Assembly: GCA_009377735.1 (NCBI GenBank)
Contig: WHTL01000001.1
Span: forward strand, 1-38,205
Reading direction: 5' to 3'
Length of the DNA: 38,205 nucleotides
DNA from: Acidimicrobiia bacterium
GTDB taxonomy: Bacteria > Actinomycetota > Acidimicrobiia > Spongiisociales > ZC4RG35
The position numbers and the translations under genes were made by a program. This document shows, piece after piece, positions 1-32,075 of this stretch. Numbering within the stretch: position 1 is the stretch's first letter; each line of letters begins with the position of its first letter. The notes beneath the pieces were generated by a model. That model saw nothing but the letters and a program-made list of their open reading frames with translations, was not told the origin of the DNA and did no database searches.

Positions 1-729
1 GCGACTGCCACCGTCGTCAACAATGTGGAAACCCTTGCCAATGTCCCGGGAATCCTGACTCACGGTGCCGACTGGTTCCGAGAGGTCGGCACGGAGGACT
101 CACCGGGACCGATGTTGTTCACTGTCTCGGGCGATGTTAGAAATCCATCGGTCGCCGAGCTTCCCCTTGGCACACCGCTCTCGTTTCTGCTCTACGGGGT
201 GGTCGGAGGCCTGGAGGCTGGTCGACGCCCCAAGCTGGTCGTCTCCGGGGTATCCAATCGACCATTGACGGCGAGTGAGCTGGACACCCCGCTTTCCTTC
301 GAGGCGATGTCCGAGATCGGGAGCGGCCTCGGCTCCGGTGGCTTCATCGTGTACGACGACACCACATGTGTCGTTGAGGTGGCGACCGTCCTCTCGTGGT
401 TCCTCCAAGTGGGGTCTTGCGGGCAGTGTCCGCCCTGTAAGTTGGGTACCACCGCCTTCGCCGAGGGGTTCGAGAAGGTGATGGCTGGAACAGCCACCGA
501 GGATGACCTCGACGACATGTTGGGCTGGGTTCCCCGTGTCACCGATTCCAACCGGTGTGGTCTCGGAGCGGGACAGCAGAACCTGGCAGCCGGCATCTTC
601 AACACCTTCCCCAACGATGTCCGCGCCTGCTTCGAAGGCCGGTGCCCCGGCCACCGCGGCCTGGCCCCCCCACTTCCCACCGATCACGACCCCCTCAACC
701 GCCGCCCCATCCAGATCTTCGCGCCGTAG
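1..729 (+). CDS. NuoF-family flavoprotein subunit (NADH dehydrogenase / NAD-linked hydrogenase or formate dehydrogenase type), C-terminal part; 5' end lies outside the window
   Basis: Frame 1 is open from base 1 (ATVVNNVETLANVP...). 4Fe-4S cluster motif GSCGQCPPCKLG ... RCGLG. Stop TAG at 727-729. Confidence 0.8.
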   Translation, partial: ATATVVNNVETLANVPGILTHGADWFREVGTEDSPGPMLFTVSGDVRNPSVAELPLGTPLSFLLYGVVGGLEAGRRPKLVVSGVSNRPLTASELDTPLSFEAMSEIGSGLGSGGFIVYDDTTCVVEVATVLSWFLQVGSCGQCPPCKLGTTAFAEGFEKVMAGTATEDDLDDMLGWVPRVTDSNRCGLGAGQQNLAAGIFNTFPNDVRACFEGRCPGHRGLAPPLPTDHDPLNRRPIQIFAP

Positions 730-774
730 GTGTAATGCGGTAGATGTGGCGGACTCCTGGGTCAGCGAGAGTAC

Positions 775-1326
775 GGACCGGGTGTGCCGCAACGAGCGAC
801 GATCATAGGCAACGGACGTGGGCAGTCGTGCAGATGCCGTGGTGGTGGGTGGGAAACGTATGCCGCGGCGAGTGTTCCACCAGCAAGACCCGCGGCGACG
901 TAAGACCTCAGACTGCGCTCACCTAAGACCCGGCAATCACCCCGACACGACAGACAGGCACAGGTACGCGGATGTTGAGGTCGGACGACCGCAGCCACGC
1001 GAGAAGTGAGGTGGAGGCAGCCGTTGGGGGTCTGGGGGACGTCGCGGTCGCCGATGCCACGGACCGGGTGTGCCGAAAGAGGCGATGACTGCGGGCTCCC
1101 AGATACGGGTGGTCGTGCAGATGCTGTGGTGGCGGGTGGGAAGCCTCAGCCGAGATGAGCGGTTCACCGGCGAAACCCGCGACCAGATAAAACAACAAGC
1201 CGAAGTCACACCGAACCCGACAACCTCGCCCTTATGCGACAGACAGGCACCGCGTCGCGGAGGTGAGGTCGGACGGCCCGGCCACGCGGGGAGTGGGGTA
1301 GAGGCAGCCGTTGGGGGTCTGGGGGA
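775..1326. repeat. Tandem duplication of a ~286-nt noncoding unit (unit A 775-1039, 21-nt spacer, unit B 1061-1326)
   Basis: Both units share ordered identical blocks: ggaccgggtgtgccg, gtcgtgcagatgc[c/t]gtggtgg[t/c]gggtgggaa, gacagacaggcac, gaggtcggacg, ccacgcg, gaggcagccgttgggggtctggggga. The blocks are separated by indel-rich variable spacers. No consistent reading frame is conserved between the units. Confidence 0.85.
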
Positions 1327-1345
1327 GTCCCCCAGAAATAACAGC

Positions 1346-1394
1346 AACCCAGGGTTCCCACGGTCGCTCAGCGACGTCCCCGGCCCTAAGTTCG
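1346..1394. repeat. 49-nt intergenic element, copy S1 (AACCCNGGGTT palindrome, central hairpin, GCCCTAAGTTCG)
   Basis: Same length and same terminal modules as the copies at 1417, 18337 and 28401. Central gtcgc-tca-gcgac hairpin. Its 3' end forms a 7-bp inverted repeat (gttcgca/tgcgaac, 1390-1419) with the start of S2. Confidence 0.8.
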
Positions 1395-1416
1395 CAACCG
1401 GCCGTGCGTCGGTGCG

Positions 1417-1465
1417 AACCCAGGGTTCCCACGTCCGCTCAGCGACGTTCCCGGCCCTAAGTTCG
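1417..1465. repeat. 49-nt intergenic element, copy S2; overlaps the last codons and TAG stop of the amidohydrolase gene
   Basis: Near-identical to S1. The cta at 1457-1459 inside the gccctaagttcg module is the TAG stop of the minus-strand CDS 1457-2731. Confidence 0.8.
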
Positions 1466-2731
1466 GCGGTATCTTGTCTCGCCCGCCACCACGGTGGCGG
1501 AGCATCTCGATGCGCCCTGGGTGACCAATGACTCAAGAACCTGGTCGGGGACAGGGTCTACGTCGAAGACGGCCAGGTCTGCCCGTGCTCCAGCAACCAG
1601 CTCACCGACCGCACCGCGCGTCCCCATTGCCTCTGCTCCTCCGATGGTGGCGGCCCGAAGGAGACGGGGTGCCAGGTCCTCTCCTTGGTAGCCCTGATCC
1701 CGTGCCAGGTCGTAGAGCAGTGCCACGTCGGCCATGAGATCGAGGGAGGGGCTCGAGCCTAAAGAGTCCGTCCCCACGGCAATGGGGTTGCCCTCCTCAA
1801 GGAACGCCCGGATGGGTGGTGGGTCGATTCCAACACCGAGGTTGGAGCGGGGACAGAGCGCCGTCGTCGTGTTTCGTTCCCGAAGGATACGCCTCCCGTC
1901 CTTGCCCAGGTAGACGCCATGCGCAACATGGGTGGTAGGTCCGAGAAGCCCACACGACTCGGCGAACTCGGCGGCCCCCATCCCGGTTCCACCACGGCCG
2001 AGGACACCCCAGGGACGACCGACACGCATGGCGACCCTCTCGGCGAGGGCACCACGGCCATTCCTGTAGTAGTCGTCCTCGGTGTCCGACTCGGCGAGAT
2101 GGATGTGAAGCCTCCGACCCATGTCATTAGCCAGTCGTGCCAGATGTTTCAGTACCGGCTCGTCGAGACTGTATGGGGCGTGGGGTGAGATACCGACCGT
2201 GGAATCACCGGAGATCGGGGCCTCGGCCACGGTGCTTGCGAGTGTCTCCTCGACATGGCTCTTCCAGGCTTCCTCGTCGACGCCGATCACCTCCAGATAG
2301 GCGACCCCCGCTACCCCCATCTCGTCGAGAATGCCGAGGGCGGCGACGTCCGTAACGATGTCGGCGAAGCAGGTGGTGCCATTTCGAAGAGATGCATGAA
2401 CCCCATCTCGGGCCGATTGAGCCCAGTCGTCATTCCGACGCTCTTCATACTCCTCGACGAACCGGGCCGACCAGGTGACATAGTCGGGATGTCTGACCGA
2501 CCCGACCGATGAGAAGCTGGTGTACTGGAGATGAGTGTGGGCGTTCACTAACCCCGGCACCATCACCCCCTGCCACTCGCACTTTTCCGCATCCGGGTAG
2601 GAAGCAGTGAGCCTGTCTCTCTCACCCACGTCGATGATCCGCCCCTGACGGCTCACAACACCCCCATCCCGGATTGGTGGCGCCGACACCGGGACCACGG
2701 TGGGGGCGAGGTGGATGGTGGTGGTCACCAA
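1457..2731 (-). CDS. Metal-dependent amidohydrolase of the chlorohydrolase / MTA-SAH deaminase (MtaD/DadD-like) group
   Basis: 424-aa ORF with motifs VNAHTHL (HxH), HIHLAES, VAHGVYL, VGTDS. The start is non-ATG (TTG 2731 or GTG 2728). The GTG forms a GTGA overlap with the upstream stop. Confidence 0.8.
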   Translation of the reverse strand: MVTTTIHLAPTVVPVSAPPIRDGGVVSRQGRIIDVGERDRLTASYPDAEKCEWQGVMVPGLVNAHTHLQYTSFSSVGSVRHPDYVTWSARFVEEYEERRNDDWAQSARDGVHASLRNGTTCFADIVTDVAALGILDEMGVAGVAYLEVIGVDEEAWKSHVEETLASTVAEAPISGDSTVGISPHAPYSLDEPVLKHLARLANDMGRRLHIHLAESDTEDDYYRNGRGALAERVAMRVGRPWGVLGRGGTGMGAAEFAESCGLLGPTTHVAHGVYLGKDGRRILRERNTTTALCPRSNLGVGIDPPPIRAFLEEGNPIAVGTDSLGSSPSLDLMADVALLYDLARDQGYQGEDLAPRLLRAATIGGAEAMGTRGAVGELVAGARADLAVFDVDPVPDQVLESLVTQGASRCSATVVAGETRYRRT

Positions 2732-3927
2732 CTTCGGGTCGCCTCCGCCTGCTCCTGGCTGGGAATGTCGATAACGAGCCCTGATGCGGCGAGTTGCGAT
2801 GCCGCCACCTCGTCGTCGATCTCATCGGGTAGGAGGTGGACCCCGACGGGGAGGTCGTTTCCTGCGAGGTGATCGAGGGCACGCAATTGCAGGGCAAGCG
2901 ACAGGTCCATGATCTCGATGGGGTTGCCCTCGCCCGCCGTGGTGTTGGCACAGTAGCCATCGGCGACCACGAAGACCGTTGTGCCCCCGGGAGTCCGCCA
3001 AGCCCGGACATTCGGCCGGACCGTGTCTCCACCGGAGAGGGGCGGACCGATGGAGGGATCGAACTCGGGTGGGCCGGCACCACCCACCGCAATGACGGTT
3101 CCCTCACGCATCTTGGCGACGTGCTCAGCGGTGAGGGTGTGGGCGATACCGGTGGCCGTGATGACGAAGTCGGCCTGACCAATCGCGTCGGCCACGGGGG
3201 CCACTTCGAACCCGTCGTGGTGGGCGCGCAGGGCGGCAACGGGATCTATCTCGGTCACCGTGACCCGGCCCCCGAGACCACGGGCCGCTGCGGCGATTCC
3301 ACGGCCAACCTTTCCGTAACCAACCACAACCACCGACGCTCCCGACATCTGCATGTTGGTGGCGTCGAGAACAGCCATAACCACTGACTGCCCGGTGCCG
3401 TAGACGTTGTCGAAGAGCACCTTGCTGCGGGCGTCGTTGACGGCGATGCACGGCACCTCCAGCACGCCATTCTGTTCCATCACCCGAAGGGGCCGGACTC
3501 CGCTGGTGGTCTCCTCGGCGACACCTTTGAGATGCTTCAGGGCGTCGCGGCGGTCGCGGTGGAGCCGTCGCGTGATGGAGGCGCCGTCGTCGCAGAGGTA
3601 TTGATTCCCAACATCGATGAACCGGTCGCGAAGAAGATCGACCCGCACCCTGTCTGCGCCCGTCTCGGCAAATACCGCGATGCCTTCCTCGGTCAAGGCG
3701 TCCACTACCTCCGTCTTGGTGGAATGACCGGAGCCGAAAACCGACACCTCCGCTCCCAAAGATGCCACGGCCTCGGCTAGACATGCTGTCTTCGGTTCCA
3801 AGGTCAGGGCTATTCCCACCTTCGCCCCATCGAGGTTCCCTGTCTGCCTGACGGTGGCGGTGGCGGCATCCAAGGCCGGCATGAACCCGCGGGCGAAGTC
3901 GATCATCCCACGACCCTTCTCAGTCAT
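2725..3927 (-). CDS. Adenosylhomocysteinase-fold paralogue 2 (divergent; catalytic histidines replaced)
   Basis: AhcY motifs are present: DDG, AEETTSGV, NDARSKVLFDNVYGTGQS, GYGKVGRG, TEIDP. The histidine motifs read TLEPKTA (not HLExKTA), GGAGPPEFD (not GHxDxEID) and GNP (not GHP). ATG at 3927 lies inside the last codons of the upstream gene. The longer ORF to 4224 is a low-complexity extension overlapping that gene. Confidence 0.8.
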   Translation of the reverse strand: MTEKGRGMIDFARGFMPALDAATATVRQTGNLDGAKVGIALTLEPKTACLAEAVASLGAEVSVFGSGHSTKTEVVDALTEEGIAVFAETGADRVRVDLLRDRFIDVGNQYLCDDGASITRRLHRDRRDALKHLKGVAEETTSGVRPLRVMEQNGVLEVPCIAVNDARSKVLFDNVYGTGQSVVMAVLDATNMQMSGASVVVVGYGKVGRGIAAAARGLGGRVTVTEIDPVAALRAHHDGFEVAPVADAIGQADFVITATGIAHTLTAEHVAKMREGTVIAVGGAGPPEFDPSIGPPLSGGDTVRPNVRAWRTPGGTTVFVVADGYCANTTAGEGNPIEIMDLSLALQLRALDHLAGNDLPVGVHLLPDEIDDEVAASQLAASGLVIDIPSQEQAEATRSW

Positions 3928-5206
3928 CGTTCCGTCTTCTTCCAGTCGACTCGGCTTCGAGGATGGAGGTGAGGGTGTCACTCTGATCCTCCCGGGGCAG
4001 GTCGAGCCTGATGCCGCGGCTTGCCAGCTTGGCGGTGGCAATCTCGCGATCCAGGTGGGAGGGGAACTCGTGGACGCCGGGATCGAGGTCGCCGGTGACA
4101 AGGAGGTGACAGCCCAACGCCTGTACGGAAAAGGAAAGGTCCATGATCTCAACCGGGTGCCCCATACCACCGGCGATGTTGACCAAGGCTCCCTCGGAGA
4201 GGACGTAGACCGGTCTCGCGCCATCGATTAGATATCGGGAAACCCCCGGTCTCACCTCGGTGACATCGCTGGACCGCGTCGCCAGTGCGGGGGTGTCGAT
4301 CTCCAGATCATGATGACCGGCATTGGCGAGCACGACCGAATCACCGAGGACGTCTATGTGGTCATCGCTCACGGCTCGCAAACCTCCGGTGGCGGTGATC
4401 ACGATCTCGGCGCCATCAATTGCCGTCATCATGTCGGCGACGTCGTGGCCATCGCTCAGCGCCTCGAGTGCCCGAACGGGGTCGGTCTCCACCACGACCA
4501 CCCGGCCTCCCAGGGCGTGGGTGTAGTTGGCAATGCCCCGTCCCACCCAGCCGTACCCGATGACAGCGACCCGCTTGCCGGGCAGTCGGAGGTTGGTCAA
4601 CGAGAGGATGGCCTGAAGGGTGGATTGCCCCGTGCCATAGCGATTGTCGAACATGTGCTTGCAGGCGGCGTCGTTGGCAGCGATGGCCGGCATCGGTAGT
4701 TCGTCGCGACTCTCCAGGGCACGAAGACGGGCGACACCGGTGGTGGTCTCCTCCGACACCCCCTGCAGCTCGGCATACAGATTTGGCCGGTCGCGGGCTA
4801 TGCGAACGGTGAGCTCCGCCCCGTCGTCGATGATGTACTCCGGTCCACTCTCGGCGACTGCTACCAGGTCGACCTCCCACATCTCCTGGGTGGCGCCCCT
4901 GGTGGAATGCACCTCGATGCCCCGCTCCACGAGTGCGGCGGCGACCTCGTCACGGGTGGTCCACGGGTTGGATCCGGCCACGATCACCTCGGCTCCGGCG
5001 TCGGCCAGCACGGTCGCCAGAAAAGCCGTCTTCGCCTCGAGATGCACCACGACCGCGACGCGACGTCCCCGGAGAGACCCGTCCTCGGTGAGTCTTCGAC
5101 GGACGAACCCGTCCAGGACGGGTGATCTCTGTCGCGCCCACTCGATAGCCTGCTGACCTTCGGGTGCCAGGGAAGGATCGGCAATCCTCGACCGTTCGAA
5201 CGTCAT
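3920..5206 (-). CDS. ahcY: Adenosylhomocysteinase-like enzyme, paralogue 1 (archaeal-type; catalytic motifs intact)
   Basis: MTFERSRIADPSLAPEGQQAIEWA N-terminus. Motifs HLEAKTA, IIDDGAEL, SEETTTGV, NDAACKHMFDNRYGTGQS, GYGWVGRG, ETDP, NAGHHDLEID, GHPVEIMD. ATG 5206 overlaps the upstream TGA (ATGA). Confidence 0.8.
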   Translation of the reverse strand: MTFERSRIADPSLAPEGQQAIEWARQRSPVLDGFVRRRLTEDGSLRGRRVAVVVHLEAKTAFLATVLADAGAEVIVAGSNPWTTRDEVAAALVERGIEVHSTRGATQEMWEVDLVAVAESGPEYIIDDGAELTVRIARDRPNLYAELQGVSEETTTGVARLRALESRDELPMPAIAANDAACKHMFDNRYGTGQSTLQAILSLTNLRLPGKRVAVIGYGWVGRGIANYTHALGGRVVVVETDPVRALEALSDGHDVADMMTAIDGAEIVITATGGLRAVSDDHIDVLGDSVVLANAGHHDLEIDTPALATRSSDVTEVRPGVSRYLIDGARPVYVLSEGALVNIAGGMGHPVEIMDLSFSVQALGCHLLVTGDLDPGVHEFPSHLDREIATAKLASRGIRLDLPREDQSDTLTSILEAESTGRRRNDD

Positions 5207-5955
5207 AGACGACCAGCCTCGATGATCCGCTGTAGGAACTGCCTGGTGCGGGGGTTTGCGGGGTCGCTGAACAGTTGGGCTGGCTCGTTCTGCTCGAGGA
5301 TGCGACCATCGTGCAGGAAGCACACCCGATCGGCGACATCGCGGGCGAAGGCCATCTCGTGGGTCACGATCACCATCGTCATCCCCTTCTCCTTGAGATC
5401 GCGGATGACAGCGAGGACACCACCGATCAGCTCCGGATCGAGGGCGGCAGTCACCTCATCGAGGAGGAGGACGTCGGGATTTGTGGCCATGGCACGGACT
5501 ATGGCGACCCTTTGCTGTTGTCCACCCGAGAGCCGATCGGGATAAGACGAGGCGAATTCTCCCATCTCGAAGAGCTCGAGCAGCCGGTGGGCGTTGTCCT
5601 CGGCCGCCGCCTTGTCGACCCCGTGCACCCGGCGTGGTGCCAGAGTGATGTTGTCAAGGACCGTCATGTGGGGGAAGAGGTTGTAGGCCTGGAACACGAT
5701 CCCAATCCGCTTCCTCAGTTCGTTCTCGGTGAGGGATTCGTCGTAAAGGTCGACGCCGTCGAGGAGGATGCGGCCGCCCTCATAGTCCACAAGTCTGTTG
5801 AGACAGCGGAGCAGGGTGGACTTGCCCGAACCCGAGGCGCCGATGAGACAGACCACCTCGTGGGTGGCGACTTCGAGGTCGATCTCGTTCAGCACCATCT
5901 TGTCGCCGTAGAACTTGACGAGCCGTTCCACCTGGATCTTGGCGGGAGAATCCAT
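5203..5955 (-). CDS. Polar amino-acid ABC transporter ATP-binding protein (GlnQ/HisP type)
   Basis: Walker A GASGSGKST, signature LSGGQQQRV, Walker B LLLDE. Length of 250 aa is typical of the family. Confidence 0.9.
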   Translation of the reverse strand: MDSPAKIQVERLVKFYGDKMVLNEIDLEVATHEVVCLIGASGSGKSTLLRCLNRLVDYEGGRILLDGVDLYDESLTENELRKRIGIVFQAYNLFPHMTVLDNITLAPRRVHGVDKAAAEDNAHRLLELFEMGEFASSYPDRLSGGQQQRVAIVRAMATNPDVLLLDEVTAALDPELIGGVLAVIRDLKEKGMTMVIVTHEMAFARDVADRVCFLHDGRILEQNEPAQLFSDPANPRTRQFLQRIIEAGRL

Positions 5956-6800
5956 CAGACGGTCCTTTGCAGACGGCGCTCCTGATCACGACGGGCGTAC
6001 CAGTCGGTGAAGCGGGCGAGGGGGATGCTTGCAATCAGGAAGAGGATGGCGGCCGCGATGAGGCTGGAGTAGTTGAAGGTCCGCGCGGTGTAGATCTCAG
6101 CGGCACGCACCGCTTCCCTCACACCGAGGACGGACAGGAGTGCCACGTCCTTCTGAAGTGAGACGGCGCCGTTGAGGAGTGCCGGTGCCACGTTGCGGAT
6201 CGCCTGGGGGATGATGGCGAAACGGAGGGTCACCCACTGGTTGAGACCCAGAGCCCGTGCTGCGGCGCGCTGGCCGTCATGGACCGCTTCCATTCCCGCC
6301 CGGTAAACCTCGGCGCTGTAGGCGGAGTATCCGGCGATCAAGGCTACCGAACCCCAGAAGGTGGCACTCGTAGGTAGTCCCGGTAGCTGGAGGGCGGGAA
6401 CACCGAAGCCGAAAAGAAGGATCAGAAGCAGGGCGGGCACCCCCCGGAAGAGGTCGATGTAGGCGATCGTGGCGAGACGGAACGGGGCGGCGATAGGCCC
6501 GGTGAGAGAGCGGAGCACTGCCAGCAGGAGGGCGAACGCCAAGATGATGACCTCAGCGACTATCCAGATCCTCAGGTTCAGCCAGAACCCGGCGAGGACG
6601 GAGGGAAACGACTCCTGGATGGCCTCCCAGGAGAAGAATTGGTTTCGCACCGCCGGCCACTGCTCGGCCGAGCTGATCCACCACGCCGCCAGACCGAACA
6701 CGATCACGGTGCTCACCCCACTGATCAGGAGCGAGGTTCGTCGCTCCCGCGCCACCCGTCTGTGATGGGCCTCCGCTACCGCGGTGGAGTGCTCGGTCAC
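5955..6800 (-). CDS. Polar amino-acid ABC transporter permease (His/Glu/Gln/Arg/opine family)
   Basis: Multi-TM protein in an operon with family-3 SBP and GlnQ-like ATPase genes. I prefer the GTG at 6800 because it forms a GTGA overlap with the SBP stop. The ORF-track ATG at 6839 is the alternative start. Confidence 0.8.
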   Translation of the reverse strand: MTEHSTAVAEAHHRRVARERRTSLLISGVSTVIVFGLAAWWISSAEQWPAVRNQFFSWEAIQESFPSVLAGFWLNLRIWIVAEVIILAFALLLAVLRSLTGPIAAPFRLATIAYIDLFRGVPALLLILLFGFGVPALQLPGLPTSATFWGSVALIAGYSAYSAEVYRAGMEAVHDGQRAAARALGLNQWVTLRFAIIPQAIRNVAPALLNGAVSLQKDVALLSVLGVREAVRAAEIYTARTFNYSSLIAAAILFLIASIPLARFTDWYARRDQERRLQRTV

Positions 6801-7762
6801 CCCTCGATCAGCGGGATATCTCCGCCTTGCTCGAGCCACTCCTCCGCCATGGCGTCGATGGCGCCGCTCTCGTGGAGGGCTTCAAGGGCGGGGTTGACAC
6901 AATTCACGTACTCGTTGCCCTCGGTGAAGAGGAGACCCATGCCCTCCCCACTGTCACCTTGCTCTGGCAGAAGACCGGAGATGACCGCATTCTCCAACTC
7001 GACCGCGGTGAGGAAGTGGGCAGTCGGGAGACCCACGACGGTGGCGTCGATCTGTCCCGCATTTAGGGCGGCAACGGTGTCTGCCTGGGTGTTGTATACC
7101 GCGGTGTCGGTATCGCCGATCACCTGCTCGATATAGTCGAGATCGGTGGTCCCGATGGTGGCTCCCAGGTTGGCTTCCGCCAGCTCAGCGAAGGTAGTTG
7201 CCTGGGCGGCTGGGGTGTCGCTCAAAGCGATCACCGACTTCTGCACGTTGTAGTAGGGGATGGAGAAATCGACGACCTCGTCTCGCTCCTCGGTGATGGA
7301 GTACTGCTGCATGTTGAAGTCGTAGTCCTTCTCACCGGGGGCGATGGCCTGATCGAAACCGGTGCGGACCCAGCTGACGTCCTCGGCGGCGAAGCCCAAC
7401 TCCTCGGCGAGGGCATATGCCACGGCACTCTCGAATCCCTCACCGTTGGTGGGGTCATCGTCCATCATCCAAGGTGGGAACACCGGTTCCCCGGTGGCGA
7501 TGGTGAGCTTTCCGGGTTCGAAGAGGAGATCACTGTCGGTGGAGCAGGCGGCGTTTACGGTGGTCTCCGTCGCCGCCGCGGTGGTCTCGGCAGGAGCCGC
7601 GGTGGTCTCGCCCGCCGCGGTGGTCTCGGCAGGGGCAGTGGTGTCCGGCGCAGCAGCGGTGGTCTCGGTCCCGACACCCGTAGTGTCTGCGGGATCCGAT
7701 CCCCCACACGCGGCCAGAACCAGGGTGAGTGCCAGCGTCGAATACATCAGCTTGCGGTACAT
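6797..7762 (-). CDS. Amino-acid ABC transporter substrate-binding lipoprotein (SBP family 3) with a Thr/Ala-rich tether
   Basis: Signal peptide with lipobox LAAC. ETTAA/DTTAP-type repeat linker followed by an SBP_bac_3-like domain. SD-like AGGAGG lies about 7 nt upstream of the ATG. Confidence 0.85.
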   Translation of the reverse strand: MYRKLMYSTLALTLVLAACGGSDPADTTGVGTETTAAAPDTTAPAETTAAGETTAAPAETTAAATETTVNAACSTDSDLLFEPGKLTIATGEPVFPPWMMDDDPTNGEGFESAVAYALAEELGFAAEDVSWVRTGFDQAIAPGEKDYDFNMQQYSITEERDEVVDFSIPYYNVQKSVIALSDTPAAQATTFAELAEANLGATIGTTDLDYIEQVIGDTDTAVYNTQADTVAALNAGQIDATVVGLPTAHFLTAVELENAVISGLLPEQGDSGEGMGLLFTEGNEYVNCVNPALEALHESGAIDAMAEEWLEQGGDIPLIEG

Positions 7763-7892
7763 CGGGATCCTCCTGGAGAAATACGATTCGATTGCTTCAA
7801 CACTCCCAATGCGAGATCACTGGCGAACTGTCACCCACAGGGAAAGATCCAGTTTACGACGTGATGAAGATCAGGTGTTCACCCGTGCCGGG

Positions 7893-8780
7893 TCAGGTGA
7901 TCGATGCCTCGTAGATGCTCCCAATCGAGGTGTCCAGGGCAGAGTCGAACTCCTCGTCGCTCTGCTGTGCGGTAAGCCCTTCGGTGAGGGCCCTCGAGAA
8001 GCTGGCGATCATGCCTTGGTTACGGGTGAGGCGATCGGTAGCCTCCTCCCTGCTGTAGCCACCGGAAAGGGCGGCGACCCGAAGTACCTTCGGGTGGGAG
8101 ATGAGGTCGGCGTAGTGTCCGTCCACCTCGGGGAGAGTCAGTTTCAGCATCACTTGCTCGTCGTCGCCGATCGACTCCAGACCGGCCAGGATCGTGGACC
8201 TGAGGGAATCTTCCGCTGCCTCCTTTTCGGGGCTGTGGATGTCGATCTCCGGTTCCAGGATGGGCACCAGCCCCGCGGCGAGGATCTGACGACCGATCTC
8301 GAACTGCTGGTCGACCACGGCACCGAGACCGGTGGGGTTGGCCATCTTGATGACAGACCGCATCTTGGTGCCAAACACACCGTGCTCCAGCGCCTTGGCC
8401 AGGAGTGAGTCGAGACCCGGGATGGGCTTCATCACCTGTGCCCCATCGCTCTCATCGGCAAGGCCCTTGTCGACCTTCAGGAAGGGGACTACCTGCTTCT
8501 TCGTCCATAGATATTCGGCGGAGCCCAAACCCTCGATCTCGCGATCCATGGTGTTCTCGAAGAGGATCGCACCAACGACACGATCTCCTCCGAAGACGGG
8601 ACTGGTGATGATCCGTGTTCGCATCTCGTGGATCTTCTCGAACATCTCGTCGTCACCGGAGTACTCCGACTCCTCGACTCCGTATACCCGCAGCGCCTTG
8701 GGGGTGCTGCCGCCGCTTTGGTCGAGGGCGGCGATGAAGCCCTTGCCCTTGGCCATCTTGTCGAACTGCTGCTGGTTCAT
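7893..8780 (-). CDS. Class I fructose-bisphosphate aldolase
   Basis: MNQQQFDKMAKGKGFIAALDQSGGSTPKAL N-terminus is typical of Gram-positive class I FBA. SD AGGGAG lies upstream of ATG 8780. The track ORF extends to 8903 without support. Confidence 0.85.
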   Translation of the reverse strand: MNQQQFDKMAKGKGFIAALDQSGGSTPKALRVYGVEESEYSGDDEMFEKIHEMRTRIITSPVFGGDRVVGAILFENTMDREIEGLGSAEYLWTKKQVVPFLKVDKGLADESDGAQVMKPIPGLDSLLAKALEHGVFGTKMRSVIKMANPTGLGAVVDQQFEIGRQILAAGLVPILEPEIDIHSPEKEAAEDSLRSTILAGLESIGDDEQVMLKLTLPEVDGHYADLISHPKVLRVAALSGGYSREEATDRLTRNQGMIASFSRALTEGLTAQQSDEEFDSALDTSIGSIYEASIT

Positions 8781-8953
8781 GGGAGGTCTCCCTTGTGAAA
8801 AGTGTCTTGATCCCGACAATAGCCAACCGAGAAGCTGTCCCCCCACTGATGTAGGGGCCGGGGACGGTTCCTGCCGGCCGGAGGCCGGGAGGAAGGGGGG
8901 CACAACAGCCTCGATAGTCGCGACCCGATCGCATCGGGGAGTTGCCCGATCGT

Positions 8954-8970
8954 CAGCGCCTTCGGCGCTG
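8954..8970 (-). terminator. Hairpin downstream of livM (cagcgc-cttcg-gcgctg)
   Basis: Perfect 6-bp GC-rich stem 12 nt after the livM stop. There is no U-tract. Confidence 0.4.
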
Positions 8971-8981
8971 CCACTCCCCCC

Positions 8982-10007
8982 TCATTCGAGGGGAGAGAAT
9001 GTTTGACGGCGTTTGAACCAATCGTCCACGGTCGGGATCACGCCATTTGGGATCCAGAGGAAGAGGATGATGATGAGCAATCCATACGGCACCAGCCGCA
9101 GGTGACCCAGATCGAGGAGAGCCTCGTTGATGGCGGTAAAGGTGACCGATCCGAGGATGGGACCGAGTAGCGAGCCGATCCCACCGAACGCCAGCATCAC
9201 CAACACCACCACGTCCAGCTCGGCGAATTCGAAGGTGGTCGGACTGACCCGGCCCTGGGTGAACGCATAGATGGCGCCGGTCATCCCCAACATGGCCGCA
9301 CCGATCAGGGCTGCATAGACCCTATATCGGGCCACGTTGACACCAGCCAGCTCGGCGGCGATTTCGTCGTCCCGAAGGGCCCGGAATCCCCAGCCAATGT
9401 GTGACCGGCGCAACAAGCCATGCAAGAGGAGAAAAACGAGCACCATGGCAAGCATCAGGTAAAAGGCCGGCACCCGACTCCTGAGGAAGCTGTCACCACC
9501 CGAACTGATCAAGAACCCAGATTCTCCTCCGGTGAGATCGCCCAGCCCGAGCACGAGGTTCTCGAAGGCCAGTGCGAAGATGAGGGTGACTATCCCGGTG
9601 AAGATGACACCGAGCGAGCGTCGCACCGCGATCCAGCTGAGGAGCCCACCGGCGAGGCTCGAAGCCAACGTCGCGGCGAGGATGCTGACAACGATGGGTA
9701 GGCCCACAGTATCGCCGAGGATGGCAGCGCCGTAGCCACCGATCCCGGCGAGGGCGCCGACACATAGGAACAGTTGTCCCGTGCTTCCGAAGATCACGTT
9801 GAAACCGATGGCATAGCCGGCAAAGGCGAGTCCGAGAACGGACACCGTCATCATCACTCGGGAGTCACCGAGCCAGAGCGGCATCAGGGACAGTACCGCA
9901 CCGACCGCCAGTACCGGGACCACAAGGGCGGGTAGCGACCGGACTCCTCGTCGTTCGGTGCCACCAACGACAGATGTCCCGGTCGCCTCTGTGAATCTCT
10001 CCGTCAT
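8982..10007 (-). CDS. livM: Branched-chain amino-acid ABC transporter permease
   Basis: 341-aa polytopic membrane protein. Operon position is after livH, with an ATGA overlap. Confidence 0.8.
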   Translation of the reverse strand: MTERFTEATGTSVVGGTERRGVRSLPALVVPVLAVGAVLSLMPLWLGDSRVMMTVSVLGLAFAGYAIGFNVIFGSTGQLFLCVGALAGIGGYGAAILGDTVGLPIVVSILAATLASSLAGGLLSWIAVRRSLGVIFTGIVTLIFALAFENLVLGLGDLTGGESGFLISSGGDSFLRSRVPAFYLMLAMVLVFLLLHGLLRRSHIGWGFRALRDDEIAAELAGVNVARYRVYAALIGAAMLGMTGAIYAFTQGRVSPTTFEFAELDVVVLVMLAFGGIGSLLGPILGSVTFTAINEALLDLGHLRLVPYGLLIIILFLWIPNGVIPTVDDWFKRRQTFSPLE

Positions 10008-26280: not shown

Positions 26281-26357
26281 GGTGGTCAGGGGCGGAATCG
26301 AACCGCCGACCCCCGGTTTTTCAGACCGGTGCTCTAGCCAACTGAGCTACCTGACCG
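26281..26357 (-). tRNA. tRNA-Phe (GAA), CCA encoded
   Basis: Manual cloverleaf: acceptor GGTCAGG/CCTGACC, anticodon arm CCGGT-CTGAAAA-ACCGG, T arm GGCGG-TTCGATT-CCGCC, 3' ACCA. Confidence 0.9.
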
Positions 26358-26394: not shown

Positions 26395-26472
26395 GGCGGG
26401 GACGACGGGATTTGAACCCGCGACCTCCGGCTTGACAGGCCGGCGAACACTCCAGACTGTTCTACGCCCCCG
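26395..26472 (-). tRNA. tRNA-Asp (GTC), CCA encoded
   Basis: Manual cloverleaf: acceptor GGGGGCG/CGTCCCC, anticodon arm CCGGC-CTGTCAA-GCCGG, T arm GCGGG-TTCAAAT-CCCGT, 3' GCCA. Confidence 0.9.
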
Positions 26473-30737: not shown

Positions 30738-31889
30738 TCAACCATCGACGATGGCATTCCACTCCCGGATCCAAAGCTCTCGGTTCGCTGCTATTTCCTC
30801 GATCGGGATCCGGGCGGGGGAGTCGGGAACGTCGGTGAACTCCACGAATTCCTGCGGGAGCTCCACGGTTTCATTGGCGGGGAAGACGAACCAGGTGAGC
30901 GGAATTTCCTTCTGGAAGCCCGGGGAGAGCATGAAGTCGATGAGCTTACCGGCCTCGGCCTCGTGGTCGGTCCCTGCCAGGATCCCTGCGAACTCGATTT
31001 GGCGGTAGCAGCCGTTGGTGACCACGGCCGTTGGCGCCGTTTCGAGTGGTTCCTCGGCGAAGATCACCTCGGCGGGTGGGGAGGAGGCGTACGACATAAC
31101 GATGGGTCGCTCACCTCCGTAGCGGGTGAACGAGCTGTAGTAGGCGGCATCCCAGTCGGCGGCCACCTCCACCCCGTTGTCCACCAGCCCCTGCCAGTAC
31201 TCCTGCCATCCGTCCTCCCCGAACTCGGCGATGGTGGCGAGGAGGAACGCCAGCCCCGGGGAGCTGGTGGCTGCACTCTCCACGACCACCAGGTCCTGGT
31301 AGGGCTCTTGGGTGAGTTGCTCCAGATCTGTCGGCGGCTCGACTCCCGCTTCCTCAAGGGCAGCGATGTCGTAGTTGAAGCAGACATCCCCGTAGTCGAT
31401 GGGAGTGGCTCTCCTCTCCTCGTCGAGCTCGAGCTCGTCGGGTACATCGCTCAGGAGCGGCGACTCGTATGGGAGGAGTATTTCCTCGTCGAGGGCCCGT
31501 GTGAGGAAGGTGTCGTCGATCCCGAACATCACATCGGCGATGGGGTTGTCAGCAGTGAGAACTAGCTGGTTGGTGAGGGATCCGGCGTCCCCACCGGCGA
31601 GAATCTCCACCGAGATCCCGGTTTCCTCAGTGAAAGGAGCGAAGACCTCTCCGGCGGCATCGGCAAAGGAGTCGTGGGCGATCAGGGTGAGGGTTAGGTC
31701 AGACTCACCGCCCCCAGTGGTGGTGCTGGTCGCGGCCGTGGGGGATGCAGAGCCCACGGTGGTGACCGAACCTTCGGTCTCGGTAGTTGCTTGACCCGTT
31801 CCCTGATCTGCGATCGTGGTCGAGGTGGCTTCGTCGCCCGATCCGCAGCTCACGAGAATGATCACCAGGATGAGGAGGATGGTCTTCAT
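30738..31889 (-). CDS. thiB: Thiamine-binding lipoprotein of the ABC transporter (TbpA/ThiB family)
   Basis: MKTILLILVIILVSCG lipobox and a Thr/Ser-rich tether. TbpA-like blocks DSFA, ATSSPGLAFLL, SYASSP, WFVFPAN, WIREWNA. SD AGGGAG lies 6 nt before ATG 31889. Confidence 0.85.
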   Translation of the reverse strand: MKTILLILVIILVSCGSGDEATSTTIADQGTGQATTETEGSVTTVGSASPTAATSTTTGGGESDLTLTLIAHDSFADAAGEVFAPFTEETGISVEILAGGDAGSLTNQLVLTADNPIADVMFGIDDTFLTRALDEEILLPYESPLLSDVPDELELDEERRATPIDYGDVCFNYDIAALEEAGVEPPTDLEQLTQEPYQDLVVVESAATSSPGLAFLLATIAEFGEDGWQEYWQGLVDNGVEVAADWDAAYYSSFTRYGGERPIVMSYASSPPAEVIFAEEPLETAPTAVVTNGCYRQIEFAGILAGTDHEAEAGKLIDFMLSPGFQKEIPLTWFVFPANETVELPQEFVEFTDVPDSPARIPIEEIAANRELWIREWNAIVDG

Positions 31890-31913
31890 GTAATGCTCCC
31901 TGTTGTTGCGTAT

Positions 31914-32007
31914 GGGAGCCGAAGACGATCCCTGCGGCGGCATTACCCGCATCAGGTTCGAACGGTCGGAGCGTTAGCTCCCTCTCAGCCCGGTTCGTCG
32001 GGCTCCC
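31914..32007 (-). promoter_or_regulatory. TPP (THI-box) riboswitch aptamer
   Basis: Minus-strand RNA: GGGAGCCCGACGAACCGGGCUGAGAGGGAGCUAACGCUCCGACCGUUCGAACCUGAUGCGGGUAAUGCCGCCGCAGGGAUCGUCUUCGGCUCCC. It carries the conserved CUGAGA, ACCUGAU and GGUAAUGCC..GCAGGGA blocks. P1 is GGGAGCC/GGCUCCC. It lies directly upstream of thiB. Confidence 0.9.
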
Positions 32008-32075
32008 GTGTGTCATTGATCTGAAACCGATGGTACCGCTTCGCGGCGATATCGCCGATTACGCTCGCCCCAGAC

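What the first reader, a model, noticed from the sequence alone, without database searches (positions are those of the whole stretch)
2725..3927. Second AhcY paralogue keeps the NAD-binding fold but has lost three catalytic histidines
I aligned the two tandem paralogues by eye. Paralogue 1 keeps all three histidine motifs: HLEAKTA (His55), NAGHHDLEID and GHPVEIMD.

Paralogue 2 reads as follows at the same positions:
- TLEPKTA, with Thr42 in place of the histidine.
- GGAGPPEFD, with no histidine.
- GNPIEIMD, with Asn335 in place of the histidine.

Paralogue 2 still retains EETTSG, the K/D pair in NDARSKVLFDN, and the GYGKVGRG dinucleotide-binding loop.

In characterised SAH hydrolases these histidines take part in catalysis and domain closure, and the enzyme is a tetramer. 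Paralogue 2 is therefore either a non-catalytic partner subunit in a hetero-oligomer or an enzyme with different chemistry. Its start codon is embedded in the end of paralogue 1, which favours stoichiometric co-production.
Basis: partly seen in the sequence, partly recalled or inferred. Interest (0 to 1): 0.6.

Follow-up and report, generated by a model that had tools for sequence, protein, structure and literature searches.

The report
Histidine-less SAH-hydrolase paralogue, conserved clade
The second of two back-to-back SAH-hydrolase-like genes has lost three textbook histidines, yet it belongs to a large, carefully conserved and unstudied enzyme clade that databases label "adenosylhomocysteinase", and in Bifidobacterium and Gardnerella it is the only such gene.

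Summary
P2 (2725-3927, minus strand, 400 aa) has T42, A284 and N335 where P1 and all solved SAH hydrolases have His55, the gate His301 and His353. It keeps the NAD loop and the 3'-oxidation residues (D114, E139, K169, D173, N174). Its ATG overlaps the P1 stop by 8 nt.

P2 is not decaying. It has more than 120 orthologue clusters, dN/dS is 0.10-0.26, and the AF2 model has pLDDT 93 and TM 0.93-0.94 to archaeal-type SAHHs.

The histidine-less proteins form one clade (SH-aLRT 99-100) that is sister to the P1 clade, so the tandem duplication is ancient.

P1 and P2 stay adjacent and translationally coupled in about 40 loci from three phyla. They are fused in frame in 17 protein clusters, so a P1/P2 complex is likely.

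The constant core of the module is P2, a COG0402 purine-type deaminase and an importer. P1 is degenerate or truncated in some Acidimicrobiia and absent in Bifidobacteriaceae and Leucobacter. P2 is fused to the deaminase in Rarobacter.

P2 is therefore more likely an NAD enzyme with altered chemistry than a dead helper subunit. Its substrate is unknown, and I found no paper on this clade. The scan has noted the same pair in other genomes.

The parts
2725..3927 (-). P2: histidine-less archaeal-type SAH-hydrolase-fold protein, 400 aa. T42, A284-G285 and N335 replace His55, the gate His-Phe and His353. The NAD site and the 3'-oxidation residues are kept.
3920..5206 (-). P1: complete HxExK-type (inosine/SIH-type motif) SAH-hydrolase paralogue, 428 aa. 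It has H55, H298-H299 (gate HH instead of HF) and H350.
   Evidence: The motif meaning comes from PMC10978960.
3920..3927 (-). 8-nt overlap ATGACTGA between the P1 stop and the P2 start (translational coupling).
   Evidence: Equivalent overlaps of 1, 4 or 8 nt occur in most related loci.
1457..2731 (-). COG0402 (TRZ/ATZ, MTA/SAH/aminofutalosine-deaminase-like) amidohydrolase with intact HxH, HxxE, H and D motifs. Its start overlaps the P2 stop.
5203..5955 (-). ABC transporter ATPase. Its stop overlaps the P1 start (ATGA).
5955..6839 (-). ABC permease (BPD_transp_1).
6797..7762 (-). Family-3 (polar amino-acid type) solute-binding lipoprotein. It is the first gene of the six-gene operon.

Best explanation
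P2 is a working member of an old, widespread and uncharacterised clade of SAH-hydrolase-fold proteins. After a tandem duplication of an HxExK (inosine-type) enzyme, this clade lost the two histidines that hold O5' and water (His55 and the gate His301, together with its Phe). It later lost His353.

**Shown**
- The fold is intact.
- The NAD motifs are invariant, as are the residues that do the 3'-OH oxidation and C4'-H abstraction (K169, D173, N174, E139, D114) and the base-contacting E44 and K46.
- Purifying selection acts on the gene.
- The histidine loss has a single origin.
- P2 is constantly linked to a purine-nucleoside-type deaminase and an importer.

**Inferred**
- P2 binds NAD and a deaminated, 5'-substituted purine nucleoside made by the adjacent deaminase from an imported SAH-like nucleoside conjugate.
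- It carries out the oxidation/elimination half of SAHH chemistry through a permanently open, widened and more hydrophobic 5' channel.
- The canonical histidine-assisted water addition is either dispensable for its substrate or supplied by the partner.
- In this genome P2 is made 1:1 with P1 through the 8-nt overlap and most likely assembles with it into mixed tetramers.
- P1 is an accessory partner that other lineages have degraded or lost.
For: - Alignment and structure: pLDDT 92.9, pTM 0.88; TM 0.93-0.94 to 3X2F, 7R37, 7R39, all ligand-bound closed forms.
- Conservation: more than 120 orthologue clusters at 62-74% identity. About 65 of the top 150 representatives at the 50% identity level are histidine-less but keep E, K, D, E, K, D, N. 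The clade-wide changes are few and specific.
- Selection: dN/dS for P2 is 0.10-0.26, against 0.09-0.28 for P1.
- Phylogeny: the histidine-less clade has SH-aLRT 99-100, the P1 clade 99-100, and the two are sisters at 87-92. Intermediate forms that still have His353 branch at the base, and their partner genes sit in the P1 clade.
- Context: the same six-gene operon occurs in Acidimicrobiia and Nitriliruptoraceae. P1-P2 with a sugar-type ABC importer and the deaminase occurs in Microbacteriaceae, Chloroflexia and Proteobacteria. P2-type with the deaminase and an amino-acid ABC importer, without P1, occurs in 37 loci.
- Fusions: P1-P2 and P2-deaminase.
- P1 is degenerate or truncated while P2 is intact in L018/L019 and L014/L022.
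- P2-type is the sole AdoHcyase-family gene in Bifidobacterium hapali, B. pullorum, Gardnerella and Leucobacter salsicius.
- The deaminase is closest to MTA, SAH and aminofutalosine deaminases.
- The HxExK motif goes with SIH/inosine preference and a DadD-type deaminase (PMC10978960).
- AgmF shows that an 'SAH hydrolase' by annotation can do other NAD-dependent nucleoside chemistry (PMC8599513).
Against: - There are no biochemical, expression or ligand data.
- His55 and His301 are regarded as important for the hydrolytic half-reaction, so full turnover without them is unproven.
- The solo class C proteins differ from the paired P2 at 14 conserved positions. They also carry an N-terminal extension of about 125-150 aa that looks like a relic of a second NAD domain, so they may not be true stand-alone equivalents of this P2.
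- The AF2 model of a natural P1-P2 fusion gave no confident inter-domain packing (pTM 0.45).
- Importer types differ between lineages, so the substrate class is uncertain.
- Retention of catalytic-looking residues is also seen in some pseudoenzymes.
Confidence: 0.5

Rival explanations
1. P2 is a non-catalytic (pseudoenzyme) subunit. It binds NAD and perhaps the nucleoside, and serves only to build, stabilise or regulate a P1/P2 hetero-tetramer in which P1 does the chemistry. This would be the bacterial counterpart of AHCYL1/IRBIT pairing with AHCY.
For: - Three active-site histidines are lost, including the gate.
- Translational coupling is conserved and P1-P2 fusions exist.
- P1 keeps the full catalytic set in most loci.
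- SAHHs are obligate tetramers, and paralogues of homomers often stay associated (established knowledge).
Against: - The P2-type persists, under selection, where P1 is absent, truncated or itself degenerate.
- K169, D173, N174, E139 and D114 are invariant in 80 sequences, whereas the degenerate P1 of L018 lost exactly these residues.
- P2-type is fused to the deaminase, not to P1, in Rarobacter.
- In one subclade of fusions it is the P1 half that carries H55Q and E156Q.
Confidence: 0.25
2. P2 is still an SAH or S-inosyl-homocysteine hydrolase that completes the reaction without the histidines, for example with D114 and ordered water. P1 and P2 are then isozymes with different substrate preference.
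For: - NCBIfam NF004005 scores P2 above its cut-off, 387 against 275.
- P2-type is the only ahcY-like gene in several Bifidobacteriaceae.
- The adjacent deaminase is of the SAH/MTA-deaminase kind.
- The base-binding E and K of HxExK are kept.
Against: - TIGR00936 scores P2 well below its cut-off, 325 against 497.6.
- His55 is described as important for catalysis, and the His-Phe gate as highly conserved in SAHHs of all domains (PMC10978960).
- Nine positions conserved in P1 and canonical enzymes are changed around the pocket.
- Bifidobacteria are reported to carry pfs and luxS for SAH removal (PMC7817509).
Confidence: 0.13
3. P2 is a decaying duplicate (pseudogene in the making) or an annotation artefact.
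For: Loss of canonical residues. The genome is a fragmented MAG with 448 contigs and 7% contamination.
Against: - The frame is open in the window and in all 79 related loci.
- dN/dS is 0.10-0.26.
- The replacement motifs LEPKTA, EETTSG and GEGNPIE are invariant.
- The AF2 model is confident.
- Hundreds of clusters come from independent sources.
Confidence: 0.01

Closest known systems
Archaeal/Thermotoga-type SAH hydrolases of the HxExK subgroup acting as S-inosyl-L-homocysteine hydrolases together with a DadD/MtaD-type deaminase (M. jannaschii SIHH, P. furiosus and T. maritima SAHH; PDB 7R37/7R38, 3X2E; PMC10978960)
   Same: The short form has the same fold (TM 0.93-0.94, 37-41% identity). The ExK base-binding residues, the NAD site and the K/D/N/E/D oxidation residues are shared. 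A COG0402 purine-nucleoside deaminase is encoded alongside. P1 fits this type almost fully.
   Different: P2 lacks the catalytic His of HxExK, the His-Phe molecular gate and the GHP histidine. The genes sit in an importer operon as a coupled pair, in mesophilic Actinomycetota that also hold a separate canonical AhcY.
AHCYL1/AHCYL2 (IRBIT), eukaryotic SAHH-like proteins that hetero-oligomerise with AHCY (PDB 3MTG, 3GVP)
   Same: A paralogue of a tetrameric SAHH with the fold retained, thought to lack hydrolase activity and to associate with the active paralogue.
   Different: There is no IRBIT N-terminal domain. The origin is independent, inside the archaeal-type branch. A different set of residues is changed. 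The bacterial clade also occurs without any active partner. This comparison rests on general knowledge and on the PDB hit list.
AgmF, the SAHH-fold NAD-dependent dehydratase of angustmycin biosynthesis (PMC8599513)
   Same: Annotated as an SAH hydrolase, binds NAD tightly, does not use SAH, and uses transient 3'-oxidation for a different nucleoside reaction.
   Different: The AgmF study made H56A and H299A variants alongside D129A, K184A and D188A, so AgmF has those histidines. It is a long-type enzyme in a biosynthetic cluster, not an importer/deaminase operon.

Membership tests
Adenosylhomocysteinase (SAH hydrolase, AhcY) | Two-domain SAHH fold with Pfam AdoHcyase and AdoHcyase_NAD | tested here: met
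   PF05221 at 95.5 bits and PF00670 at 114 bits. AF2 pLDDT is 92.9. TM is 0.93-0.94 to 3X2F, 7R37 and 7R39.
Adenosylhomocysteinase (SAH hydrolase, AhcY) | NAD-binding motifs: GxGxxG, the acidic residue after beta-2, the TT(T/S) and the Asn residues | tested here: met
   G203-Y-G205-K-V-G208, E226, T140-T141-S142, N174 and N328 are present and invariant or nearly so in the clade. Actual NAD binding was not tested.
Adenosylhomocysteinase (SAH hydrolase, AhcY) | Oxidation/elimination residues (human numbering D131, E156, K186, D190, N191) | tested here: met
   D114, E139, K169, D173 and N174 are present and conserved in all 80 histidine-less sequences.
Adenosylhomocysteinase (SAH hydrolase, AhcY) | Catalytic His55 of the HxT/ExE/Q/K motif | tested here: not met
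   P2 has T42. The clade has T, V, I, M, P or L and never H.
Adenosylhomocysteinase (SAH hydrolase, AhcY) | His-Phe molecular gate (His301-Phe302) | tested here: not met
   P2 has A284-G285. The clade has A/G followed by G, I or V. The gate is described as highly conserved in all domains (PMC10978960).
Adenosylhomocysteinase (SAH hydrolase, AhcY) | His353 of the GHP loop | tested here: not met
   N335, 100% Asn in the clade.
Adenosylhomocysteinase (SAH hydrolase, AhcY) | Curated equivalog score thresholds | tested here: inconclusive
   NF004005 scores 387 against a cut-off of 275, so it passes. TIGR00936 scores 325 against 497.6, so it fails. NF004010 scores 243 against 512, so it fails.
Adenosylhomocysteinase (SAH hydrolase, AhcY) | Reversible hydrolysis of SAH (or SIH) to nucleoside plus homocysteine | not testable with these tools
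   This needs an enzyme assay.
AHCYL/IRBIT-like inactive partner | Hetero-oligomerises with the active paralogue and has no activity of its own | not testable with these tools
   Indirect support for association comes from the overlaps and fusions. Evidence against dependence on a partner is that P2-type occurs without P1. The AF2 model of a fusion was uninformative, with pTM 0.45.
AgmF-type SAHH-fold dehydratase | Long-type enzyme that has His56 and His299, encoded in a nucleoside-antibiotic cluster | tested here: not met
   P2 lacks both histidines and lies in an importer/deaminase operon.

The most novel reading that the evidence does not exclude
The histidine-less clade is a new enzyme activity of the SAHH fold: an NAD-dependent lyase or transferase acting on deaminated 5'-substituted purine nucleosides. 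With a dedicated deaminase and importer it forms an undescribed salvage route for SAH-like nucleoside-amino-acid conjugates. On this reading the 'ahcY' of Bifidobacterium, Gardnerella and many Actinomycetota is mis-annotated. P1/P2 would then be the first bacterial hetero-oligomeric SAHH, with the complete paralogue as the dispensable partner.
Probability: 0.35. Interest if true: 0.8.

Novelty: new variant of a known kind. Interest (0 to 1): 0.62.

Why it matters
SAH hydrolase is treated as one of the most uniform enzymes known, with the His/His-Phe gate conserved in all domains of life.

A large clade has dropped these residues yet is kept under selection. It includes hundreds of 90%-identity clusters and one bifidobacterial cluster with 5,280 member sequences. 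This points either to new chemistry on the SAHH scaffold or to a bacterial pseudoenzyme partner.

It also has a practical consequence. NCBIfam NF004005 passes these proteins, and public records name them adenosylhomocysteinase. Metabolic reconstructions of bifidobacterial sulfur amino-acid metabolism count 'ahcY' as an SAH hydrolase (PMC7817509). If the protein does something else, those pathway maps are wrong.

The operon context gives a direct experimental handle: an importer, a deaminase that matches MTA, SAH and aminofutalosine deaminase structures (all 5'-substituted adenosines), and natural fusions.

Tried and rejected
- **Riboswitch clue.** No SAM or SAH riboswitch lies upstream of the operon in the window or in 7 related loci.
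- **Promoter and terminator scan.** The scan of 700-8200 found nothing. The consensus is probably unsuitable for this high-GC actinobacterium.
- **Solute-binding protein.** Only generic Arg/Gln/Lys-type binders match in the PDB and NCBIfam, so there is no substrate clue.
- **Block-diagonal alignment for a pseudo-multimer fold.** I aligned fusions with separate P1 and P2 sequences, but MAFFT stacked the P2s on the P1 half, so I abandoned it.
- **AF2 of a natural fusion.** With 17 fusion sequences the model had pLDDT 75 and pTM 0.45, so it does not inform on the interface.
- **Literature.** Searches for a described bacterial histidine-less or second AhcY returned only eukaryotic AHCYL and plant SAHH2 papers.
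- **Pseudogene or decay reading.** Rejected.
- **AgmF-like reading.** Rejected because AgmF has the histidines.
- **Class C as proof that this P2 works alone.** I considered this and softened it. Class C proteins differ at 14 conserved positions and carry a probable relic of a second NAD domain.
Full report
**Anatomy**

Six minus-strand genes are chained by overlapping stops and starts:
- a family-3 solute-binding protein (6797-7762);
- a permease (5955-6839);
- an ABC ATPase (5203-5955);
- P1 (3920-5206, 428 aa);
- P2 (2725-3927, 400 aa);
- a COG0402 amidohydrolase (1457-2731).

The P2 ATG lies inside the last codons of P1. The shared string is ATGACTGA, an 8-nt overlap. Base composition is even across the region.

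- P1 and P2 are 41% identical over their full length.
- In that alignment, and in HMMER alignments to the T. maritima SAHH structures, P2 has T42, A284 and N335 opposite P1's H55, H298 and H350. These correspond to human His55, His301 and His353.
- P2 keeps E44 and K46, D114, E139, T140-T141-S142, K169, D173, N174, the GYGKVGRG loop, E226 and N328.
- Koeppl et al. 2024 (PMC10978960) describe the first His as important for catalysis and the His-Phe pair as a molecular gate conserved in all domains. They describe HxExK as the signature of the subgroup that prefers inosine and SIH and co-occurs with a DadD-type deaminase.
- P1 reads HLEAK. P2 reads TLEPK, and its gate is Ala-Gly.

**P2 is not decaying**

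- P2 has more than 120 orthologue clusters at 62-74% identity, mostly Acidimicrobiia. Public records that carry a name call them 'adenosylhomocysteinase'.
- The replacement motifs are themselves invariant: LEPKTA, EETTSG, VGGAGPPEFD and AGEGNPIEIMD.
- NG86 dN/dS in unsaturated pairs is 0.10-0.26 for P2 and 0.09-0.28 for P1.
- An AF2 model built on 37 orthologues has pLDDT 92.9 and pTM 0.88. It superposes on ligand-bound archaeal-type SAHHs with TM 0.93-0.94.
- The genome also holds a separate canonical long AhcY on another contig, so neither P1 nor P2 needs to be the housekeeping enzyme.

**A large clade with three genomic settings**

A scan of one genome per species returned 79 loci. Mapping the six window proteins onto them gives three settings.
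- **(A)** The identical six-gene operon, in Acidimicrobiia and Nitriliruptoraceae.
- **(B)** P1-P2, then a sugar-type ABC importer (SBP_bac_1 plus two permeases, with a LacI regulator), then the amidohydrolase. This occurs in Microbacteriaceae, a Chloroflexia MAG and some Acidimicrobiaceae. P1-P2 is also found in Mesorhizobium, Granulosicoccus and a Rhodobacterales MAG.
- **(C)** A single histidine-less gene, the amidohydrolase and an amino-acid ABC importer, with no P1. This occurs in 37 loci of Leucobacter, Mycetocola, Bifidobacterium, Gardnerella and relatives.

Further points on breadth:
- In B. hapali, B. pullorum, Gardnerella and L. salsicius the histidine-less gene is the only AdoHcyase-family gene in the genome.
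- Of 119 Bifidobacteriaceae hit clusters, 109 show the full signature ([IV]LEPKTA, EETTSG, GNP and K..FDN) in a regex scan. The other 10 each miss one pattern.
- Named members include B. catenulatum, B. pullorum and Gardnerella vaginalis/piotii 'adenosylhomocysteinase'. One unnamed cluster has 5,280 member sequences.
- In an exhaustive HMMER search of 50%-identity representatives, about 65 of the best 150 are histidine-less while keeping E, K, D, E, K, D, N.
- No solved structure has this pattern.

**Evolution**

- In maximum-likelihood trees rooted on the genome's long AhcY, the histidine-less sequences form one clade (SH-aLRT 100 and 99). The P1 sequences form another (99 and 100). The two clades are sisters (87 and 92). 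Their internal branching mirrors each other.
- Two genomes of the same class (G085, G121) carry pairs in which the second gene has lost His55 and the gate His but still has His353: ALEPKTA, NAGGPSDE, GEGHPIE. These intermediates branch at the base of the histidine-less clade, and their partner genes sit in the P1 clade.
- The simplest history is one ancient tandem duplication, stepwise loss of the histidines in the downstream copy, co-inheritance of the pair, and later loss of P1 in some lines.
- Only 3 of 201 sampled genomes of the class, the window's own among them, carry such a pair. The operon is therefore a sporadic accessory trait. Proteobacterial pairs nested among Microbacteriaceae point to horizontal transfer.

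**Do P1 and P2 act together?**

- The P1 stop and the P2 start overlap by 1, 4 or 8 nt in most of the roughly 40 paired loci.
- Four genomes have P1 and P2 in one reading frame.
- A search with that fusion found 17 independent clusters of 797-864 aa from NCBI, JGI, ENA and Logan assemblies.
- This is good indirect evidence for a P1/P2 complex, as expected for paralogues of an obligate tetramer.
- An AF2 model of the fusion was too uncertain to show an interface (pTM 0.45).

**Which partner is dispensable?**

The evidence points to P1, not P2.
- In L018/L019 (Poriferisodalaceae) P1 has lost H55, D131, E156, D190, N191 and H353, while P2 is intact.
- In L014 and L022 the P1 slot holds only a remnant of about 200 aa at 30% identity.
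- In one subclade of fusions the P1 half carries H55Q and E156Q.
- Class C has no P1 at all.
- Class C proteins do carry an N-terminal extension of about 125-150 aa. Its profile aligns to the start of the AdoHcyase NAD domain, with the GxGxxG loop destroyed. The hhalign P-values are 1e-4 against P1 and 2e-6 against canonical enzymes, and the same region matches each time. This suggests they descend from a fusion whose P1 half decayed. The point is suggestive, not proven.
- In Rarobacter incanus (998 aa) and in one metagenomic protein (899 aa) the histidine-less domain is fused to the amidohydrolase.

**What the changes say**

- Against P1 plus canonical enzymes, the whole clade differs at few positions:
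  - His55 becomes T, V or I.
  - The Asn of the SNP motif becomes variable.
  - EETTTG becomes EETTSG.
  - The Arg after it becomes Pro (Pro or Ala in class C).
  - The Asn before the gate becomes V or T.
  - The gate His-Phe becomes A/G followed by G, I or V.
  - A conserved pocket Leu becomes C or G.
  - His353 becomes N.
- All residues of the NAD-dependent oxidation machinery are untouched.
- The pattern is a remodelled, wider and less polar 5' side of the pocket with no gate, on an intact redox engine.
- That looks like changed substrate or reaction rather than loss of function. AgmF is a precedent for SAHH-fold enzymes that do not use SAH, although it has the histidines.

**The deaminase**

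- The amidohydrolase has the HxH, HxxE, H and D motifs, read directly from the translation.
- It is closest to two P. aeruginosa amidohydrolase structures (4DYK and 4GBD, which I recall as an MTA deaminase), to MTA/SAH deaminases (4F0R, TM0936), to aminofutalosine deaminase and to 8-oxoguanine deaminase.
- It reaches no NCBIfam equivalog cut-off.

**Best reading and its limits**

- I read the module as uptake of an SAH-like nucleoside conjugate, deamination of its purine, and processing by the histidine-less enzyme. In this genome that enzyme probably works in a mixed complex with the complete HxExK paralogue.
- The substrate and the reaction are inferred, not shown.
- The paired P2 differs from solo class C proteins at 14 conserved positions, so independence of this particular P2 from P1 is not established.
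- The main rival, a pseudo-subunit, keeps about one chance in four.

**Prior knowledge**

- I found no paper on this clade.
- Bifidobacterial 'ahcY' is assigned by similarity only (PMC7817509).
- Earlier notes of this scan describe the same twin pair in other genomes and reached a similar view.

Noticed in passing
L087 (G085:C2) 6947-9387 and L088 (G121:C4) 6022-8453: These pairs have a second gene that is an intermediate form. His55 and the gate His are lost (ALEPKTA, NAGGPSDE) but His353 is kept (GEGHPIE). They branch at the base of the histidine-less clade.
   Followed up: partly
P0128 (Rarobacter incanus, 998 aa) and P0310 (899 aa): Natural fusions of a histidine-less AhcY-like domain with the COG0402 amidohydrolase.
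   Followed up: partly
Class C proteins, e.g. L056 9719-11263 (Gardnerella) and the Curtobacterium proteins of about 571 aa: An N-terminal extension of about 95-150 aa has a conserved W...ATNLL(V/I)AGRRF...G(G)D...LGAR pattern. It aligns to the start of the AdoHcyase NAD domain with the glycine loop destroyed. It is possibly a relic of a lost P1 half.
   Followed up: partly
L018 and L019, 3737-4867 (Poriferisodalaceae / Acidimicrobiales MAGs): The P1 copy is 55% identical to the window's P1 but has lost most catalytic residues (R, E, G, E, D and Q at the H55, D131, E156, D190, N191 and H353 positions), while P2 next to it is intact.
   Followed up: partly
Class C loci, e.g. L050 15946-16449: A Cupin_5 (DUF985) gene is conserved between the amidohydrolase and the binding-protein gene in 16 class C loci.
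   Followed up: no
G000:C367:5939-7330 (locus L001): The genome's canonical AhcY is the long type (HMTKETA, NIGHFDNE), whereas sampled relatives of the same family carry a short canonical type. The MAG has 7.2% estimated contamination, so the origin of that contig is uncertain.
   Followed up: no
Representatives P0176, P0193, P0195, P0203, P0210, P0226, P0229 and P0266: Other SAHH-fold subfamilies keep His55 and the gate His but have Asn at His353 (pattern H-H-N). They form at least two separate clades.
   Followed up: no
window 31912-32019 (-): A TPP riboswitch scores 73.4 bits against a gathering score of 54.3. It overlaps the called start of the 30738-31952 ORF on the same strand.
   Followed up: no
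window 26283-26356 and 26397-26471 (-): Two adjacent tRNA genes.
   Followed up: no
Cluster of P0479: One 90%-identity cluster lists both Gardnerella 'adenosylhomocysteinase' proteins (about 500 aa) and 'amidohydrolase family protein' entries (473 aa). A read-through or fused record may bridge the two neighbouring genes.
   Followed up: no
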